NCBI GenBank assembly: GCA_963169765.1
Contig: CAUJEN010000184.1
Location: forward strand, 16,468-80,467
Reading direction: 5' to 3'
Source: Vulcanimicrobiota bacterium
GTDB lineage: Bacteria > Vulcanimicrobiota > Xenobia > Xenobiales > QWHO01
DNA: 64,000 nt
Shown here: one piece after another, positions 30,614 to 36,596 of the stretch
Layout: each line of letters opens with the position of its first letter
How positions within the stretch are numbered: the first letter of the stretch is position 1
The notes under the pieces: model-generated
Databases searched by the model: none
Told to the model about the DNA's origin: nothing
The model's input: the letters and a program-made list of their open reading frames with translations, nothing else
Translations under genes and position numbers: made by a program

Positions 30614-31150
30614 TTACGGGGCGCGCTCGACACGCCGAAGGAGCTCTTGCTGGCGCGCCTCCACCTTGAGCAACCCGCCGCACAGGTGATCGTTGCCCTG
30701 TGACAGGGTCTCGAAGGCCGACTCGGCGGCCGCCTCGTCCAGCGGAGAGAGGGCGCCCTCGAGCCGATCCAGTCCTTCGCGGAAGAGATCCACCCCGCGC
30801 ACCATCAAGTAGCGCACCTCGGGCACAAAGCTGCCCTCGGGGTCGGCCTGCTCCTCCACGAGCAAGAGCTCGAGGAGCTGGGGCACGGCCTGACCGGCGA
30901 ACTCCTCGAGCAGAGCGCGCAACTCGCTCAGGTAGCCGGGCACCTCCTCGAGGTTGTGATAGAGAAGCTCGTGCAGCACGTTCAAGTTGTGGGTCAGGAA
31001 GCGTTCTTGCGGCACCGGATATTCGCGCCCTTCCTCGAGCGAAAGGCCCGCCCGCGGCTCCTGGGGGGCGGCCTGCAGCAAGAGCGCGTTGCATTGAGGG
31101 CAATATTTCGAGCCTGCCGGAGGGCTGGCTCCGCAGCGCAGACACAGCAT
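30614..31150 (-). CDS. Zinc-ribbon hypothetical protein, last gene of FtsZ-like cassette
   Basis: N-term CLRCGASPPAGSKYCPQCN (CxxC...CxxC); start abuts stop of upstream giant gene (31151). Confidence 0.5.
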   Translation of the reverse strand: MLCLRCGASPPAGSKYCPQCNALLLQAAPQEPRAGLSLEEGREYPVPQERFLTHNLNVLHELLYHNLEEVPGYLSELRALLEEFAGQAVPQLLELLLVEEQADPEGSFVPEVRYLMVRGVDLFREGLDRLEGALSPLDEAAAESAFETLSQGNDHLCGGLLKVEARQQELLRRVERAP

Positions 31151-34100
31151 CTAGGACTTGCTCTGGGTGGCCGCCAGCAAGGCCAGCTTACCGTCCTCGC
31201 GTCTTCGGGTGAATTGCTCGGCCCGGGCCATCACCTCTTCGGCCTTCTGGCCGATGGCCTCGGGCCCCAGGGAGCGCACCAGAGGGGACTCCATCACATG
31301 CTGCACCTCGTCAGAGAGAACCCGCACCGTCATCATGTCCTCGAAGGGCAGCTCTGACTCGCTGGAGACCTTGCCCCACTTTTCACCGTAGGCCTCGCGC
31401 TTGTAGTGCTCGAGCAGGGCGCAGTAGGCGGCCATCTCCTGCTCGTCCTGGGTGGAGAGCACCGCGTCGCGCCGCTGCTTGACCAGCTTGTAGAGCTTCT
31501 CGCGGGTGGCCGTCCCGGTGGTCAGCTTGACCAGCATCATGTGCCGATCCCCCAGAGGGTGGGGGCGCATCTGGAAACCGTCGCGCTCCTGCCAGAGATA
31601 CTCGCCCCCCTTGAACTCGAGCACGTCGAACAGACAGCCGAGCACCCAGCACTCGTAGGCCTCCTCCAGAGAGCGCCGCTCTTCCTGGTTGAGCACCATC
31701 AGGTCGGGGAACTTCTTGTCGTTGCAGTCGATGTGCAGCGGCTCGCCGTTGGTATAGAGCTTGAGGTAGGAGCCGCGCAGATCGGTGAGGCGGGCCATGT
31801 AGTTGATGGGGAAGCCGCCCGCCTCCTGATAGAAGATCACCTCGCTCGACTCGGGGATGGGATAGAAGTTGAGCTTTCCGGTCACCTCGCGGGTGAGGTA
31901 GGCCTTGAGCTGGTTGAGGTAGCCGGTCAGCTCGGCGGCGTCGGACGGGCTCATGCCGGCCGCTGAGGGCAGTCCGCACATGGAGTGGATCTGCTCTTCG
32001 GGCAGCTGGAAGGTGCCGTGCAGGCCGCTTCTCGTGGCCCAGTAGGCCGAGCGGGAGTACATCTGGCGCAGGTGGTTGTTGCGTGTCTGCTCGTCCATCG
32101 TGGTGTAGAGTACCTTGACCACGTGAAAGTCGGTCTTCAGCCCGGAGAACAGGTTGCGCGACTCGGTCAAGAGGGCCCGCTTCCACTCCTCGGTGCGGCC
32201 CGCCGCGATGTCGGCCGCCAGGCCCGTGACGGCCCGCTCCAACCGCTTGAGCACGGCCTTGCTGACCGCCTGCACCGTCTCGGTGCCCTTGACGTAGGCC
32301 GGGTAGTACTTGCTCTCGATGTCGGTGGGCTCGTAGAGCACCAGCGCCTGGGGCTGAGGATCCTTCTGGCTGAAGTACTTGAACCCGCCCAGCAACTCGT
32401 TCTTGAGGCCCTCCAGATCGCGGGCCAGGGAGGTGAGCTGATCCACCATCCCTCCGCCCCGACGCCCGTCAGGACGCTCGCTGCCCTGGATGGCCCGGGC
32501 CAGCCGCTCGACCAGCTCGGCCCCCTCCTTGTAGACCCGGGCCTGCAGCTGACAGCGCAAAAGGCCGGGAGTGCGGCTATCGCCCACCAGCGACTCGAGG
32601 TAGCGCTCGGCCACGTAGGCCAGGATGATGCCCTTGCGCCCGTCCAGGTTGGAGCGGTTCTGGTAACGCCCCACTTCCTGCAGCCGGCGGGTGGCTTCTT
32701 TCTGGCGCCGGACCAGCACGTCCTGAATGTCTGTCTGCTTCTTCTGGAAGACCGTGACGAAGGAGCGCAACACCTCGACCGTCTCGTTCAAGACGGCCTC
32801 GGAGTACTTCAGGCTGTCGTGCTTCTGATCGACGAGCTGGAAGGCTTTCTTGCGGATGTCCTCAGTGGCCCGCTGCTCGAGCGTCGTCAGGTTGGCCCGG
32901 ATGGTGCGCGGGAAGTGGCCCCACTTCTCGGGCTCGGCTCCCAGCTCTTCAGCTTTGAGGCGCTTTTCTTGCTCGCCGAACTTCTCTTCCAGAAAGTCGC
33001 GCAGGGTCTGGCGCGGGCCGAGCTGCCCGCGCTCCACGCTGCGCAGCACCTCCTGCGACCACTTGCTCAGCTCGTCGAGCAGGCCCTGGTTGCGCCCCTT
33101 GTCGGGGTCGGCCAGGCCCCCCGGATCGAGCAGCGAGAAGAGGATCTCGTTCTTGCGCTTGGAGTCGTCCTCCTGAAGGTGCAGGGCGGGCAGGAAGTCT
33201 TCCTTGACGAAACGGGGCAGATCGGCCTGGTTGAAAGAGGCCTTGCTCTGGCCCGACCACAGGTCTACCACCTCGGTGGCCAGTTTGTAGGCGCAAGCGG
33301 TGGTGATGCGGGCGTGGGGCACCATGATGGTGGACATTCCGAAGGACTGGTAGCGCTGGATGAAGTTCTGCTTGAAGCGCGGATGGGCGTGCTCGTAGGT
33401 CTTGTTCATGTACTGGCGCAGGTTCACACGGGCGCTGCGCTTGTGGTCGGCGAACTCGCCGTGGGAGAAATCCTTGAAGATGGAGTCGGCCAGAAGCTCG
33501 AAGATCAGCTCCTGGCTGCCGGGCTGGCCGCCGGTGGCCTGGCCGGCGGCGTTCTGGTTGTCGAAGACATAGCAGTAGTCGAACGGGGGGAGGGGTACCC
33601 GGGCGGTGACTCCCAGCGACCACTCGGCGTCGAACGTGTGGCTGCCATACTTATAATAGTTCAGCTCCTTGAGCAGGGCGTAGGCGTTGGCCTTCATCTT
33701 CTCGTTGGTGATGGTGCCGAAGTGATCAGGGAAGACCAAAAACGAGCTCAGGGTGACGTTGCCCTCCTGGAACAGGTCTTTGATCATGAAGGCGGTGTCG
33801 AGCAACAGGCCGCTGCCGGTGCCGCCGGCGATGGAGGTGACCAGGTAGACGTTGGTGGGCTGGTTGAACTCGACCTGAGCCAGGATGCCCTGGTCCTTGA
33901 GGATGTTCGAGTGCATCATCCGCTCCATGGCGTGCGGATCGCGCACCCGGGTGTTGGCCTCGGTCACGGCCGCGCGGATGGTCTTGTAGTGGTGAAAGAA
34001 GGCCAGCCGGCTGTAGGCGCGGATCTGTCCCGCGCCCTCGTTCATCTGGCCCAGCGCGTTCAAGCCCGGGTACCACCACTTGTCGATGTGGGCGTTGTTG

Positions 34101-35996: not shown

Positions 35997-35999
35997 GCT

Positions 36000-36596
36000 C
36001 TAAATCGGCATGAACACGCGGAAACTGGTTCCGTAGTTGGTGATCTGGTTGCGTAGCAGGTCACTGGCTTCTTTGCCGTTGCCCAGCGCGATGCTGATGT
36101 GCCCGTGCGGATGGCTCGCCCCCTTATCCCAGACGACGATGGCGCCCGGGGGCAGCTTCGGGAGGTCGGCCTGGGAAACCTTGATCTCTTTCACCTTGGG
36201 GTTCTTGGCCAGCTGGTCGGCGGCCATGTAGGCGCTGGCGCCGCTGGTGTTGATACCGACCTTGGCCAGGGCTCGGCCGGCGTCGCGGAAGCACCAGCCC
36301 CCGTTGCTGTCGCCGTTGGTGGCTTCTTTCTGGGCTTCGGCGGCCAGCCGGCGGCCGGTCTCGGTGCCGCCCTGGAACTGGGAGGCGTCCACCGCGCCGC
36401 CGCCGGCCCCCGTCCCCGTTCCTGTTCCTGTTCCCGTTCCCGTTCCTGTGGGTGCAGGCGGGGCGCCTGTCGAGGCGGGGGAGGCACCGCCCAGCGGGGA
36501 GGGGGAGCCCCCCGGCGGGCTCATGAGCTGCATCAGAATGCTCAGCATCTGGACCAGCATCTGGCTCTGCAGCATCATCGAGAAGGGATTTTGCAT
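36000..36596 (-). CDS. CHAP/NlpC-P60-like (Cys/His papain-fold amidase/peptidase) domain protein with Met/Gln-rich N-terminus and (Gly-Thr)n linker; start at ATG 36596
   Basis: GGWCFRDAGRALAKVG (catalytic Cys context) and HPHGHISIALGNG (His); GTGTGTGTGTGTG encoded by hexanucleotide repeat; only 3 nt from start of downstream methyltransferase gene. Confidence 0.5.
   Translation of the reverse strand: MQNPFSMMLQSQMLVQMLSILMQLMSPPGGSPSPLGGASPASTGAPPAPTGTGTGTGTGTGTGAGGGAVDASQFQGGTETGRRLAAEAQKEATNGDSNGGWCFRDAGRALAKVGINTSGASAYMAADQLAKNPKVKEIKVSQADLPKLPPGAIVVWDKGASHPHGHISIALGNGKEASDLLRNQITNYGTSFRVFMPI

What the first reader, a model, noticed from the sequence alone, without database searches (positions are those of the whole stretch)
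30614..36596. Five-gene cassette built around a giant, highly divergent FtsZ/tubulin-superfamily GTPase
A 1079-aa protein (31151-34390, minus) carries a tubulin/FtsZ-like nucleotide-binding core in its N-terminal ~250 aa, followed by an ~800-aa helical extension with no recognisable domain. The core shows GLGGTGG in the glycine-rich T1-loop position and AGGTGSG in the tubulin-signature T4 position. It is translationally coupled upstream to a CHAP/NlpC-P60-like Cys/His amidase (3-nt gap), a SAM methyltransferase, and a signal-peptide + 2-TM membrane protein (overlapping stop/start). It is followed immediately (1-nt gap) by a CxxC...CxxC zinc-ribbon protein. The unit is bounded downstream by a hairpin and upstream by a promoter-like AT-richer region. 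The architecture is most similar to the computationally defined FtsZl-1-type FtsZ-like proteins, which have no experimental characterisation. A peptidoglycan-amidase-like gene and a membrane protein in the same operon suggest a dedicated cytoskeletal / envelope-remodelling module rather than canonical division FtsZ.
Basis: partly seen in the sequence, partly recalled or inferred. Interest (0 to 1): 0.85.

Follow-up and report, generated by a model that had tools for sequence, protein, structure and literature searches.

The report
FtsZl1 tubulin-like GTPase membrane system
The giant protein is a genuine but already catalogued kind of bacterial tubulin relative (FtsZl1 / Pfam Tubulin_2) whose function nobody has tested. 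Its conserved partners are a small membrane protein, a secreted vWA protein and zinc-ribbon proteins, not the cell-wall amidase and methyltransferase that lie next to it here.

Summary

The five-gene cassette is not a conserved unit. The amidase and methyltransferase-like genes accompany the tubulin gene only in relatives with at least 84% tubulin identity. The 178-aa zinc-ribbon gene occurs only at 96% identity or more.

A census of about 90 related loci shows the conserved system to be: ZnR-beta-propeller, then a secreted membrane-anchored vWA protein, then a 3-TM protein, then the tubulin gene, then a ZnR-headed protein. In this window the beta-propeller and vWA genes are present but displaced to 16.2-19.2 kb on the other strand.

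Verdict: a new member of a known, experimentally uncharacterised family. Interest is moderate.

The parts
31151..34390 (-). FtsZl1 / Tubulin_2-family tubulin-like GTPase, 1079 aa (whole gene)
   Evidence: ORF. PF13809 hit at E 1.8e-66 over residues 17-376, covering the full 356-position profile. 282 homologues with the same ~1075-1130-aa architecture. AF2 model with pLDDT 89.3 and pTM 0.77.
33251..34366 (-). Tubulin-fold module (residues ~9-380): GTPase domain plus a reduced activation domain. Loops: T1 GLGGTGG 19-25, T3 GAGQIR 119-124, T4 AGGTGSG 188-194, T6-like FDNQN 276-280, T7-like loop DFSHG-E 307-312.
32051..33250 (-). Helical stalk (residues ~381-780) with 25-50-residue helices (492-521, 527-577, 610-635, 647-674)
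31154..32050 (-). C-terminal alpha/beta domain (residues ~781-1079) with invariant G806, Y875, H886. No solved structural relative.
34390..35208 (-). Membrane partner 'Mem': signal peptide, ~145-aa beta-rich ectodomain and three hydrophobic segments. Translationally coupled to the tubulin gene (ATGA overlap).
   Evidence: Hydropathy and junction. Homologues sit directly upstream of the tubulin gene in Vulcanimicrobiota and Acidobacteriota loci. A protein with at least 2 TM segments lies directly upstream in 36/41 vWA-linked loci, against 8.4% background.
30614..31150 (-). ZnR178: N-terminal CxxC...CxxC zinc ribbon plus a helical remainder. Its start codon abuts the tubulin stop codon.
   Evidence: Weak Zn_Ribbon_1/DZR hits and junction. 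The protein itself occurs only in the window, L002 and L016. A ZnR-headed gene directly downstream of the tubulin gene occurs in 29/64 loci, against 2.8% background.
35229..35996 (-). Probable class I SAM-methyltransferase-fold protein (255 aa) of an uncharacterised family. A lineage-specific neighbour.
   Evidence: Motif I VLDAGTGWG, with L22 D23 G25 invariant in alignment A4. PADLOC mad2 MTase region at 2e-8. The family profile's top 3 PDB hits are all SAM MTases, at E 0.04-0.7. No Pfam or NCBIfam family. Next to the tubulin gene in only 4 loci.
36000..36713 (-). Tae3-like NlpC/P60-CHAP papain-fold amidase (237 aa from GTG 36713). It has a Met/Gln-rich N-terminal helix, a Gly/Thr linker and a C-terminal catalytic domain. 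A lineage-specific neighbour.
17568..19226 (+). Displaced system component: secreted, membrane-anchored vWA-like protein (552 aa) with a signal peptide, a MIDAS-type vWA domain, a beta-rich region, one TM (418-447) and a ~105-aa cytoplasmic tail.
   Evidence: 43% identical to the protein encoded two genes upstream of the tubulin gene in L012. D25xS27xS29, T106 and T130-D131 are invariant in A2. Sub-threshold VWA_2/VWA/VWA_CoxE/VWA_3 hits in family members. Hydropathy. A homologue lies upstream of the tubulin gene on the same strand in 33 of 55 non-redundant loci.
16238..17539 (+). Displaced system component: cytoplasmic zinc-ribbon plus PQQ-type beta-propeller protein (433 aa)
   Evidence: DZR/Zn_Ribbon_1 and PQQ_2 hits. 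Homologues lie upstream of the vWA gene in 31 of 55 loci.

Best explanation
The 1079-aa protein is an ordinary member of the FtsZl1 (Pfam Tubulin_2) family. It has a cytoplasmic tubulin-fold GTPase (GTPase domain plus a reduced activation domain, residues ~9-380) fused to a long helical stalk and a family-specific alpha/beta C-terminal domain.

It is the cytoplasmic core of a conserved trans-membrane system. The other parts are:
- a 3-TM protein encoded immediately upstream and translationally coupled to it (here with an added periplasmic ectodomain);
- a secreted vWA (MIDAS) protein held in the membrane by one TM, with a cytoplasmic tail;
- a cytoplasmic ZnR-beta-propeller;
- a ZnR-headed protein encoded immediately downstream.

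In this Candidatus Xenobia-like genome the ancestral cluster has been split. The beta-propeller and vWA genes lie at 16.2-19.2 kb (+). Mem-Tub-ZnR lies at 30.6-35.2 kb (-). In this lineage only, that part has become joined at its 5' side to a Tae3-like peptidoglycan amidase gene and a methyltransferase-fold gene.

Inferred mechanism (not shown): the tubulin module binds GTP through its T1, T3 and T4 loops. It assembles head-to-tail at the inner face of the membrane, where the 3-TM protein and the vWA tail anchor it. An invariant Asp307, and a mostly acidic residue 312 in the T7-like loop/start of H8, would complete the neighbour's GTPase site. The stalk and C-terminal domain, together with ZnR adaptors, would recruit lineage-specific cargo. 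The extracytoplasmic MIDAS domain would couple the assembly to a ligand or surface outside the membrane. This is the membrane remodelling or scaffolding role proposed by Makarova and Koonin, not cell division.
For: Shown:
- Family membership and the conserved full-length architecture in 282 homologues.
- A complete tubulin fold.
- Invariant nucleotide-loop residues and an invariant D307-F308 between the predicted H7 and H8. Residue 312 is Asp or Glu in 45/58 sequences.
- Conserved gene order beta-propeller, vWA, TM protein, tubulin. Among 55 non-redundant loci with at least 3 kb upstream, 17 have Bprop+vWA, 14 Bprop+vWA+Mem, 1 Mem+vWA and 1 vWA only.
- A protein with at least 2 TM segments directly upstream in 36/41 vWA-linked loci, against 8.4% background.
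- A ZnR-headed gene directly downstream in 29/64 loci, against 2.8% background.
- The only window genes recurrently linked to tubulin homologues elsewhere are those at 16.2-19.2 kb and 34.4-35.2 kb.
- MIDAS residues are invariant in the vWA family.
- Topology from hydropathy and tight gene junctions.
- The association of FtsZl1 with vWA and membrane proteins, and the membrane-remodelling proposal, are in PMC2875224.
- Ignavibacteria homologues at 75% identity keep the same housekeeping flanks. This fits a stably inherited cellular function.
- No PADLOC defence model hits the tubulin, Mem, ZnR or amidase proteins.
Against: - No experiment on any FtsZl1 protein was found in the held literature. 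Polymerisation, GTPase activity and membrane binding are all inferences.
- I could not inspect model coordinates, so the T7 assignment rests on secondary-structure position and conservation only.
- Makarova and Koonin could not align T6-H7 and allowed that the family might not form filaments.
- The vWA assignment rests on MIDAS motif conservation and sub-threshold Pfam hits. PDB profile and hhalign tests were negative or weak.
- In this genome the vWA and beta-propeller genes are unlinked from the tubulin gene, so their partnership here is inferred from other genomes.
- The highly variable accessory genes (HSP70-like, PBP, F5/8C, PP2C, amidase) are also what a conflict system would show.
Confidence: 0.55

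Rival explanations
1. Biological-conflict (anti-invader) system, in the sense of Kaur, Burroughs, Iyer and Aravind 2020. The tubulin homologue would be an NTP-dependent thresholding or assembly-forming component. It would work with a membrane-bound extracellular vWA sensor and variable effectors (here the Tae3-like amidase and the methyltransferase) that are deployed on infection or contact.
For: - PMC7159879 describes tubulin + coiled-coil/alpha-helical proteins with membrane-bound extracellular vWA proteins, HSP70/GrpE and PP2C themes as conflict systems.
- Related loci here carry ZnR-HSP70-like genes directly downstream, HSP70+GrpE-like+VWA (L009) and PP2C (L008).
- Accessory genes vary strongly between clades.
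- The amidase's best structural match is a T6SS toxin, Tae3.
- The MTase-like protein hits a PADLOC MADS model.
Against: - The defining DO-GTPase partner is absent. Only 1 of 96 loci has any ORF with Walker A plus NKxD near the tubulin gene. No GTPase or GAP1 Pfam hit is recorded in the annotated loci.
- Those systems were reported as restricted to Firmicutes and Actinobacteria.
- No PADLOC hit for the tubulin, Mem or ZnR proteins.
- The core partners (beta-propeller, vWA, 3-TM) are constant rather than variable.
- Ignavibacteria copies sit in conserved housekeeping synteny.
- The amidase family is found mostly away from tubulin genes and without an obvious immunity gene.
Confidence: 0.2
2. 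One reading: the five co-oriented genes form a dedicated cytoskeleton-guided cell-wall remodelling module. The tubulin-like polymer, through the membrane protein, would position the amidase (and a methyltransferase) to cut peptidoglycan locally.
For: - Junctions of 3 nt, 20 nt, an overlap and 0 nt make co-transcription likely in this lineage.
- The order amidase, MTase, Mem, tubulin is retained in a relative with only 67-79% identity in the accessory proteins (L001).
- The amidase has an intact Cys/His/Asp set and a peptidoglycan-hydrolase fold.
- The membrane protein has a periplasmic ectodomain specific to this clade.
Against: - The amidase and MTase-like genes are linked to the tubulin gene in only 4 of ~90 loci, all with at least 84% tubulin identity.
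- At 64-68% identity they are replaced by nothing (L004) or by the vWA gene (L012).
- The amidase has no Sec or Tat signal and no TM, so how it would reach the wall is unexplained.
- It belongs to a multi-copy family in unrelated contexts.
- The MTase-like family has 540 representative clusters, mostly stand-alone.
Confidence: 0.15
3. Non-polymerising GTPase switch. The tubulin-fold domain would act as a nucleotide-regulated dimerisation or signalling module, with the stalk and C-terminal domain as the output. In this it would resemble large membrane-associated GTPases more than a filament former.
For: - The activation domain is reduced (three strands plus one helix after H8).
- Positions 312 and 315 are not strictly conserved.
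- PMC2875224 could not find T6-H7 or a C-terminal polymerisation domain and considered non-filament function possible.
- The 700-aa stalk and globular domain dominate the protein, and generic stalk-like matches include mitofusin, HlyD and F-BAR.
Against: - The invariant D307-F308 and K317-R318...N323 lie exactly where T7/H8 sit in tubulins.
- To my knowledge, all characterised members of the superfamily polymerise.
Confidence: 0.1

Closest known systems
FtsZl1 family (Makarova & Koonin 2010, Biol Direct 5:33; Pfam PF13809 Tubulin_2)
   Same: Full-length match to the family model. [quoted passage not shown] Same association with vWA and membrane proteins. No experimental characterisation found.
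   Different: - Here the vWA gene is unlinked, 12 kb away on the other strand.
- The main text of the 2010 paper does not mention the partners I find to be recurrent: the ZnR-beta-propeller, the 3-TM protein directly upstream and the ZnR-headed gene directly downstream. They may be among its unnamed families A1-A2 and B1-B9.
- The OmpA, protein kinase and GTPase partners it describes are not in this window.
- The AF2 model indicates that the fold continues through H7, a T7-like loop and a reduced activation domain. The 2010 sequence analysis could not align that region.
Tubulin-containing GAP1-N2 DO-GTPase conflict systems (Kaur et al. 2020, eLife 9:e52696)
   Same: A tubulin domain fused to a coiled-coil or alpha-helical C-terminal region. 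A membrane-bound protein with an extracellular vWA plus a beta-rich domain. HSP70/GrpE and PP2C themes appear in related loci.
   Different: No DO-GTPase-like ORF lies next to the tubulin genes sampled here, and no GAP1 or FNIII component was seen. Those systems were reported in Firmicutes and Actinobacteria. The present clade is Vulcanimicrobiota, Acidobacteriota and others.
CetZ / archaeal and Asgard tubulins / eukaryotic tubulin (solved structures 4b45, 3zid, 9f6v, 3cb2)
   Different: Only 10-16% identity. There are large family-specific inserts between T1 and T4, a reduced activation domain, a 700-aa C-terminal extension, no Tubulin_C or FtsZ_C domain, and a membrane-protein operon context.
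Tae3 type VI amidase effector (PDB 4hz9) and NlpC/P60-CHAP peptidoglycan hydrolases
   Different: No T6SS genes and no periplasmic immunity gene were recognised nearby. It has a distinctive Met/Gln-rich N-terminal helix and a Gly/Ser/Thr linker. It belongs to a multi-copy family across Vulcanimicrobiota. The Pfam CHAP score is below the gathering threshold.

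Membership tests
FtsZ/tubulin superfamily | Two-domain tubulin/FtsZ fold (Rossmann-like GTPase domain, H7, activation domain) | tested here: met
FtsZ/tubulin superfamily | Glycine-rich T1 loop and T4 signature GGGTG(S/T)G | tested here: met
   GLGGTGG 19-25 and AGGTGSG 188-194. G20, G22, G23, G25 and G189-G194 are invariant in 58 sequences. PF00091 partial hit at 179-244. hhalign to E. coli FtsZ aligns S4-T4-H4-S5.
FtsZ/tubulin superfamily | T7 loop / H8 acidic residue that activates GTP hydrolysis in the adjacent subunit | tested here: inconclusive
   Invariant D307-F308 in the loop between predicted helices 290-306 and 312-327. Residue 312 is D/E in 45/58 sequences, and residue 315 is variable.
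FtsZ/tubulin superfamily | GTP-dependent polymerisation | not testable with these tools
   Needs biochemistry or EM. No published experiment on the family was found.
FtsZl1 / Pfam Tubulin_2 (PF13809) | Match to the family model above the curated threshold | tested here: met
   225.3 bits against a cutoff of 27, E 1.8e-66, profile positions 1-356 of 356. All 120 listed homologues carry PF13809.
FtsZl1 / Pfam Tubulin_2 (PF13809) | [quoted passage not shown] | tested here: met
   AF2 secondary structure. Homologue lengths are 1063-1153 aa with 85-100% coverage. Family description in PMC2875224.
FtsZl1 / Pfam Tubulin_2 (PF13809) | Genomic association with a vWA-domain protein and membrane proteins | tested here: met
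   The membrane protein is translationally coupled to the tubulin gene. A vWA-like homologue is in the window but displaced to 17568-19226 (+). It is adjacent in 33 of 55 related loci. The vWA identity itself rests on MIDAS invariants plus sub-threshold Pfam hits.
Canonical division FtsZ | FtsZ_C domain, ~350-450 aa, dcw-cluster context (ftsA/ftsQ/mur genes) | tested here: not met
DO-GTPase / GAP1 conflict systems with tubulin (Kaur et al. 2020) | One or two TRAFAC DO-GTPase genes plus GAP1 next to the tubulin gene | tested here: not met
   A crude motif scan found Walker A plus [NT]KxD ORFs in only 1 of 96 loci, and none in the window's locus. No GTPase Pfam family is recorded in the annotated loci. 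GAP1 itself was not searched for with a dedicated profile.
NlpC/P60-CHAP papain-like amidases (Tae3-like) | Papain-like alpha+beta fold with catalytic Cys and His | tested here: met
NlpC/P60-CHAP papain-like amidases (Tae3-like) | Pfam CHAP (PF05257) gathering score | tested here: not met
   18.0-18.4 bits against a cutoff of 26. Four of the 120 listed family members carry a precomputed PF05257 hit.
T6SS Tae3-Tai3 effector-immunity pair | Adjacent periplasmic immunity gene and a T6SS locus | tested here: inconclusive
   The next gene is a cytoplasmic MTase-fold protein. No T6SS component was recognised among the window proteins scanned, but the whole window was not annotated.
Class I SAM-dependent methyltransferases | Motif I (E/D)xGxGxG in a Rossmann-like fold, with a match to a curated MTase model | tested here: inconclusive
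   VLDAGTGWG is present, with L22 D23 G25 invariant and G27 at 90% or more. PADLOC mad2 MTase region at 2.1e-8. The family profile's top three PDB hits are all MTases but at E 0.04-0.7. No Pfam or NCBIfam hit for the protein. The homologous regions of two fusion proteins give weak Methyltransf_25/MTS/CMAS and Methyltransf_23 hits. No structure was predicted.
vWA domain (for the displaced 552-aa protein) | MIDAS motif DxSxS...T...D in an alpha/beta vWA fold | tested here: inconclusive
   D25xS27xS29, T106 and T130-D131 are invariant in 5 divergent homologues. Pfam VWA_2/VWA_CoxE/VWA/VWA_3 hits at E 5e-4 to 0.015, all below threshold. The PDB profile search found nothing. hhalign to the integrin I-domain aligns only the DxSxS strand.

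The most novel reading that the evidence does not exclude
The conserved set would be a prokaryotic 'outside-in' linkage analogous to integrin-cytoskeleton coupling. The set comprises an extracytoplasmic MIDAS-vWA protein with one TM and a cytoplasmic tail, a 3-TM anchor, a cytoplasmic tubulin-fold polymeriser with a long stalk, and zinc-ribbon adaptors. An extracellular adhesion or ligand-binding domain would be wired mechanically or allosterically to a GTP-driven tubulin-family polymer under the membrane. N-terminal zinc ribbons would serve as the common docking module that lets different lineages plug different cargo onto the polymer (HSP70-like ATPase, beta-propeller, solute-binding domains). 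In this Xenobia lineage, a co-transcribed Tae3-like wall hydrolase would join them.
Probability: 0.12. Interest if true: 0.8.

Novelty: new member of a known kind. Interest (0 to 1): 0.38.

Why it matters
FtsZl1/Tubulin_2 is probably the most divergent branch of the tubulin/FtsZ superfamily. It is spread across many bacterial phyla and some archaea, and I found no experimental work on it sixteen years after its description.

This locus adds no new kind of system, but the follow-up sharpens what should be tested.
- The predicted fold is a complete tubulin fold with a T7-like invariant Asp, so polymerisation-coupled GTPase activity is a concrete hypothesis that mutation can test.
- The constant partners are a 3-TM protein directly upstream, a secreted MIDAS-vWA protein, a ZnR-beta-propeller and a ZnR-headed downstream gene. 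These give defined candidates for interaction studies.
- The Mem-Tub-ZnR178 trio in this window is one of the most compact versions of the system and could be a convenient construct.

The work also shows that the eye-catching amidase and methyltransferase neighbours should not be used to infer the family's function.

Tried and rejected
- A sequence search of the tubulin-like protein against PDB found nothing.
The fold had to be tested by structure prediction instead.
- PADLOC gave no hit for the tubulin, Mem, ZnR or amidase proteins. NCBIfam gave nothing useful.
- The MTase-like and amidase proteins alone had no meaningful PDB sequence hits.
- The word-indexed homologue search for the membrane protein returned only 7 close relatives. 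Its wider distribution had to be established by my own iterated HMM searches on the fetched loci. My first attempt at that timed out on a MAFFT run.
- Literature searches for any experimental work on FtsZl1/Tubulin_2, or for a defence role, found none.
- I considered that ZnR178 might be a truncated relative of the ZnR-HSP70-like downstream proteins. Beyond the ~30-residue zinc ribbon there is no detectable similarity.
- I considered the DO-GTPase conflict-system classification and rejected membership because no GTPase-like neighbour exists.

Full report
**1. Observation**

The minus strand between 30614 and 36863 carries five consecutive ORFs:
- a 178-aa protein beginning CLRC...CPQC (30614-31150);
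- a 1079-aa protein (31151-34390);
- a 272-aa protein with a signal peptide (34390-35208);
- a 255-aa protein (35229-35996);
- an ORF of up to 287 aa (36000-36863).

- TAG, 3 nt, then TTG between the last two genes.
- TGA, 20 nt, then GTG before the membrane gene.
- An ATGA overlap between the membrane and giant genes.
- TAG directly followed by ATG between the giant and zinc-ribbon genes.

GLGGTGG (residues 19-25) and AGGTGSG (188-194) are present. The window has only one tubulin signature.

Several details need correction.
- The amidase-like gene most probably starts at GTG 36713, seven bases after AGGAGG. The N-terminus MDALQQL... is shared with homologues. ATG 36596 is therefore unlikely.
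- The membrane protein has three hydrophobic segments after its signal peptide.
- The downstream 'hairpin' is no more stable than shuffled sequence (z -0.77), and no terminator-like site is found there.
- The upstream spacer is barely AT-richer than the genes and has no sigma-70-like match.

**2. The giant protein is a regular member of a known family**

It matches Pfam PF13809 Tubulin_2 end to end (E 1.8e-66, residues 17-376). It also has a weak partial match to PF00091 over the T4 region.

PF13809 corresponds to the 'FtsZ-like' proteins of Makarova and Koonin 2010 (PMC9871819). [quoted passage not shown] They are encoded next to vWA, membrane, kinase, GTPase and OmpA genes. The authors proposed a role in membrane remodelling.

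The homologue search returned 282 proteins. All 120 listed carry PF13809, and nearly all are 1063-1153 aa long with 85-100% coverage. Identity runs from 96-98% (Candidatus Xenobia / Vulcanimicrobiota MAGs) down to 25-35% (Acidobacteriota, Ignavibacteriota). NCBI already names several of them 'tubulin-like domain-containing protein'. The protein is therefore divergent from FtsZ but not from its own family.

**3. Fold**

An AF2 model built on 58 homologues is confident (pLDDT 89.3, pTM 0.77).
- Foldseek against PDB gives 155 hits at E < 1e-3. The 50 listed are all tubulin, CetZ, FtsZ, TubZ or BtubA chains, led by CetZ2 (E 1e-5, ~365 columns).

The aligned length shows that the fold extends beyond the GTPase domain into the H7/activation-domain region. 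The 2010 sequence analysis could not align that region.

From the predicted secondary structure and the conservation I assign the loops as follows:
- T1: GLGGTGG.
- T3: GAGQIR (119-124), with G119 and R124 invariant and 120-123 at 90% or more.
- T4: AGGTGSG.
- An S6/T6-like FDNQN (276-280).
- A T7-like loop between helices 290-306 and 312-327, carrying invariant D307-F308. It is followed by a mostly acidic residue 312 (D/E in 45/58) and invariant F313, K317, R318 and N323.

This pattern resembles the D-F-A-D motif of FtsZ and the D-L-x-E motif of tubulin, both recalled from my own knowledge. I could not check it on coordinates, so the catalytic role of D307/E312 is an inference.

Residues ~381-780 form long helices (up to 50 residues). 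They match only generic coiled-coil structures. Residues ~781-1079 form an alpha/beta domain with invariant G806, Y875 and H886 and no solved relative.

**4. What is conserved around it**

I fetched 12 loci through individual homologues and 80 metagenomic loci with a family-profile scan. I called ORFs in them and searched with iterated HMMs for each window protein and for recurrent neighbours.

Among 55 non-redundant loci with at least 3 kb of upstream sequence, the upstream same-strand genes were:

| Upstream genes | Loci |
|---|---|
| ZnR-beta-propeller + vWA-like | 17 |
| beta-propeller + vWA-like + Mem | 14 |
| Mem + vWA-like | 1 |
| vWA-like only | 1 |
| Mem only | 5 |
| amidase + MTase + Mem | 4 |
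| none | 13 |

The four amidase + MTase + Mem loci are exactly the window, L002 (98% tubulin identity), L016 (96%) and L001 (84%). The 13 loci with none form an Ignavibacteria-like clade.

Where the Mem HMM found nothing in vWA-linked loci, the 300-550-nt gap before the tubulin gene still encodes a 99-193-aa protein with about three TM segments. Overall, a protein with at least 2 TM segments lies directly upstream of the tubulin gene in 36 of 41 vWA-linked loci. The background among all ORFs is 8.4%. The window's Mem is this 3-TM module with an added signal peptide and a ~145-aa ectodomain.

Directly downstream of the tubulin gene, 29 of 64 loci encode a protein with an N-terminal CxxC...CxxC zinc ribbon, against 2.8% background. 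The rest of these proteins differs by clade:
- HSP70/actin-fold ATPase of ~900 aa;
- TM plus periplasmic solute-binding domain;
- F5/8 type C domain;
- a ~100-aa Zn_ribbon_8 protein in Ignavibacteria.

ZnR178 fits this theme, but as a protein it exists only in the window, L002 and L016. It is absent from L003, the continuation of L001.

**5. The missing partners are in the window**

A tblastn search of all neighbour proteins against the window hits only four places: the tubulin gene, Mem, and two plus-strand genes at 16238-17539 and 17568-19226.
- The first is a 433-aa protein with a double zinc ribbon and a PQQ-type beta-propeller.
- The second is a 552-aa protein with a signal peptide, one TM at 418-447 and a ~105-aa tail. 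It is 43% identical to the protein that precedes Mem-Tub in L012, whose tubulin is 68% identical to the window's.

Five divergent homologues of the 552-aa protein share invariant D25xS27xS29, T106 and T130-D131. This is the MIDAS pattern of vWA domains. They also give consistent but sub-threshold VWA Pfam hits. Stronger tests were negative, so I call it vWA-like with moderate confidence.

In this lineage the ancestral cluster (beta-propeller, vWA, 3-TM, tubulin) has therefore been split, and the tubulin half has acquired new 5' neighbours.

**6. The lineage-specific neighbours**

*Amidase-like protein.* It belongs to a family with 213 hits, essentially all from Vulcanimicrobiota/Eremiobacterota. 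Some contigs carry more than one copy (for example P0222 and P0237). The family has a highly conserved ~125-residue C-terminal domain and a variable N-terminus. That N-terminus contains a Met/Gln/Leu-rich helix and a Gly/Ser/Thr linker. C141, H205 and D218 are invariant.

However, full-length homologues at ~50% identity sit between HAD hydrolase and prephenate dehydrogenase genes, with no tubulin gene nearby. The protein also has no Sec/Tat signal or TM.

*MTase-like protein.* It has motif I, a PADLOC mad2 MTase-region hit (2e-8) and 540 representative clusters of mostly stand-alone ~250-aa relatives. It matches no Pfam family. The family profile's three best PDB hits are all SAM methyltransferases, but at non-significant E-values. 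I call it a probable class I MTase fold of unknown substrate.

**7. Mechanism**

*Shown:* family membership, fold, loop conservation, topology, gene order and coupling.

*Inferred:* the tubulin module binds GTP and assembles head-to-tail under the membrane. The translationally coupled 3-TM protein, and perhaps the vWA tail, anchor it. The stalk, the C-terminal domain and ZnR-headed proteins recruit lineage-specific components. The extracytoplasmic MIDAS domain links the assembly to something outside the membrane. This is essentially the Makarova-Koonin membrane-remodelling proposal with better-defined parts.

*Main rival:* the conflict-system reading of Kaur et al. 2020 (PMC7159879). It shares the tubulin + coiled coil, membrane vWA, HSP70/GrpE and PP2C themes. 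However, its defining DO-GTPase partner is absent from these loci. Ignavibacteria copies at 75% identity sit in the same housekeeping neighbourhood. PADLOC does not recognise the core proteins.

It cannot explain the family. A non-polymerising switch remains possible.

**8. Novelty and verdict**

It is a new member of a known, computationally described and experimentally untouched family. I found no experimental study of it in the held literature.

The incremental points from this follow-up are:
- the complete tubulin fold with a T7-like invariant Asp;
- the 3-TM and ZnR-headed flanking genes as near-constant partners;
- the split arrangement in this genome;
- the Tae3-like identity of the neighbouring amidase.

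Interest is moderate.

Noticed in passing
window 16238-19226 (+): A ZnR-beta-propeller gene (433 aa) and a secreted MIDAS-vWA-like gene with one TM (552 aa). They are homologous to the genes that directly precede Mem-Tub in most related loci. Here they lie 12-14 kb from the tubulin gene on the opposite strand, which implies a rearrangement that split the ancestral cluster.
   Followed up: yes
L016-L095 and L004-L012 (gene directly downstream of the tubulin homologue): In 29 of 64 loci the next gene on the same strand starts with a CxxC...CxxC zinc ribbon (background 2.8%), but the rest of the protein differs by clade: ZnR-HSP70-like ~900 aa, ZnR-TM-solute-binding protein, ZnR-F5/8C, or a ~100-aa Zn_ribbon_8 protein. 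This suggests the zinc ribbon is a shared docking module.
   Followed up: partly
window 36000-36713 (-) and homologues P0128-P0247: The Tae3-like amidase family is multi-copy in Vulcanimicrobiota. Its members share an unusual Met/Gln/Leu-rich N-terminal helix (MMLQ..QML.QLM.LMMQLM), followed by a length-variable Gly/Ser/Thr linker, and have no Sec signal. How these proteins reach peptidoglycan is unexplained.
   Followed up: partly
window ~36400-36445: An imperfect hexanucleotide run (GGAACG/GGAACA) encodes the (Thr-Gly)7 linker of the amidase-like protein. The linker region differs in length and composition among close homologues.
   Followed up: no
window 29967-30485 (-): A 172-aa Gly-rich repetitive protein (repeats of the type GxxLEN LAEGDxxGA) with no Pfam hit. 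It has its own promoter-like site TCAACA-18-TACAAT at 30562-30533 in a 53% GC spacer. It is conserved only in the 98%-identical relative and, like ZnR178, absent from L003.
   Followed up: no
window 37016-37351 (-): A 111-aa Pro-rich protein with a twin-arginine-like signal (RKKRRQFLADMLFAGGGLAAAALLA), lying just upstream of the amidase-like gene. It is conserved in L002 and, ~1.9 kb away, in L001.
   Followed up: no
window 26702-29419 (+): A 905-aa STAND-type AAA ATPase + TPR + BTAD (SARP-like) transcriptional regulator. A long antisense ORF with equally high GC3 overlaps it (26708-29440, minus strand) and is probably spurious.
   Followed up: no
window 31154-32050 (-), residues 781-1079 of the tubulin-like protein: The C-terminal alpha/beta domain has invariant G806, Y875 and H886 and near-invariant D896 across 58 homologues down to 25% identity. 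It has no solved structural relative. It may be a functional site or binding surface.
   Followed up: no
L009 1-3230 and 10364-11191; L008 10315-11250 and 1-805: Acidobacteriota versions of the system add a 1070-aa HSP70-domain protein, a GrpE-like protein and a second cytoplasmic VWA protein (L009), or a PP2C phosphatase (L008). L008 also has a Cas3-like helicase gene nearby on the other strand.
   Followed up: partly
window 14485-16098 (-), 20354-21319 (-), 21368-22408 (+): Three genes lie between or beside the two halves of the split system: a Pro-rich single-TM TPR protein divergent from the beta-propeller gene, a subtilase-like protein and a second PQQ-type beta-propeller. Whether any of them belongs to the system is unknown.
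   Followed up: no
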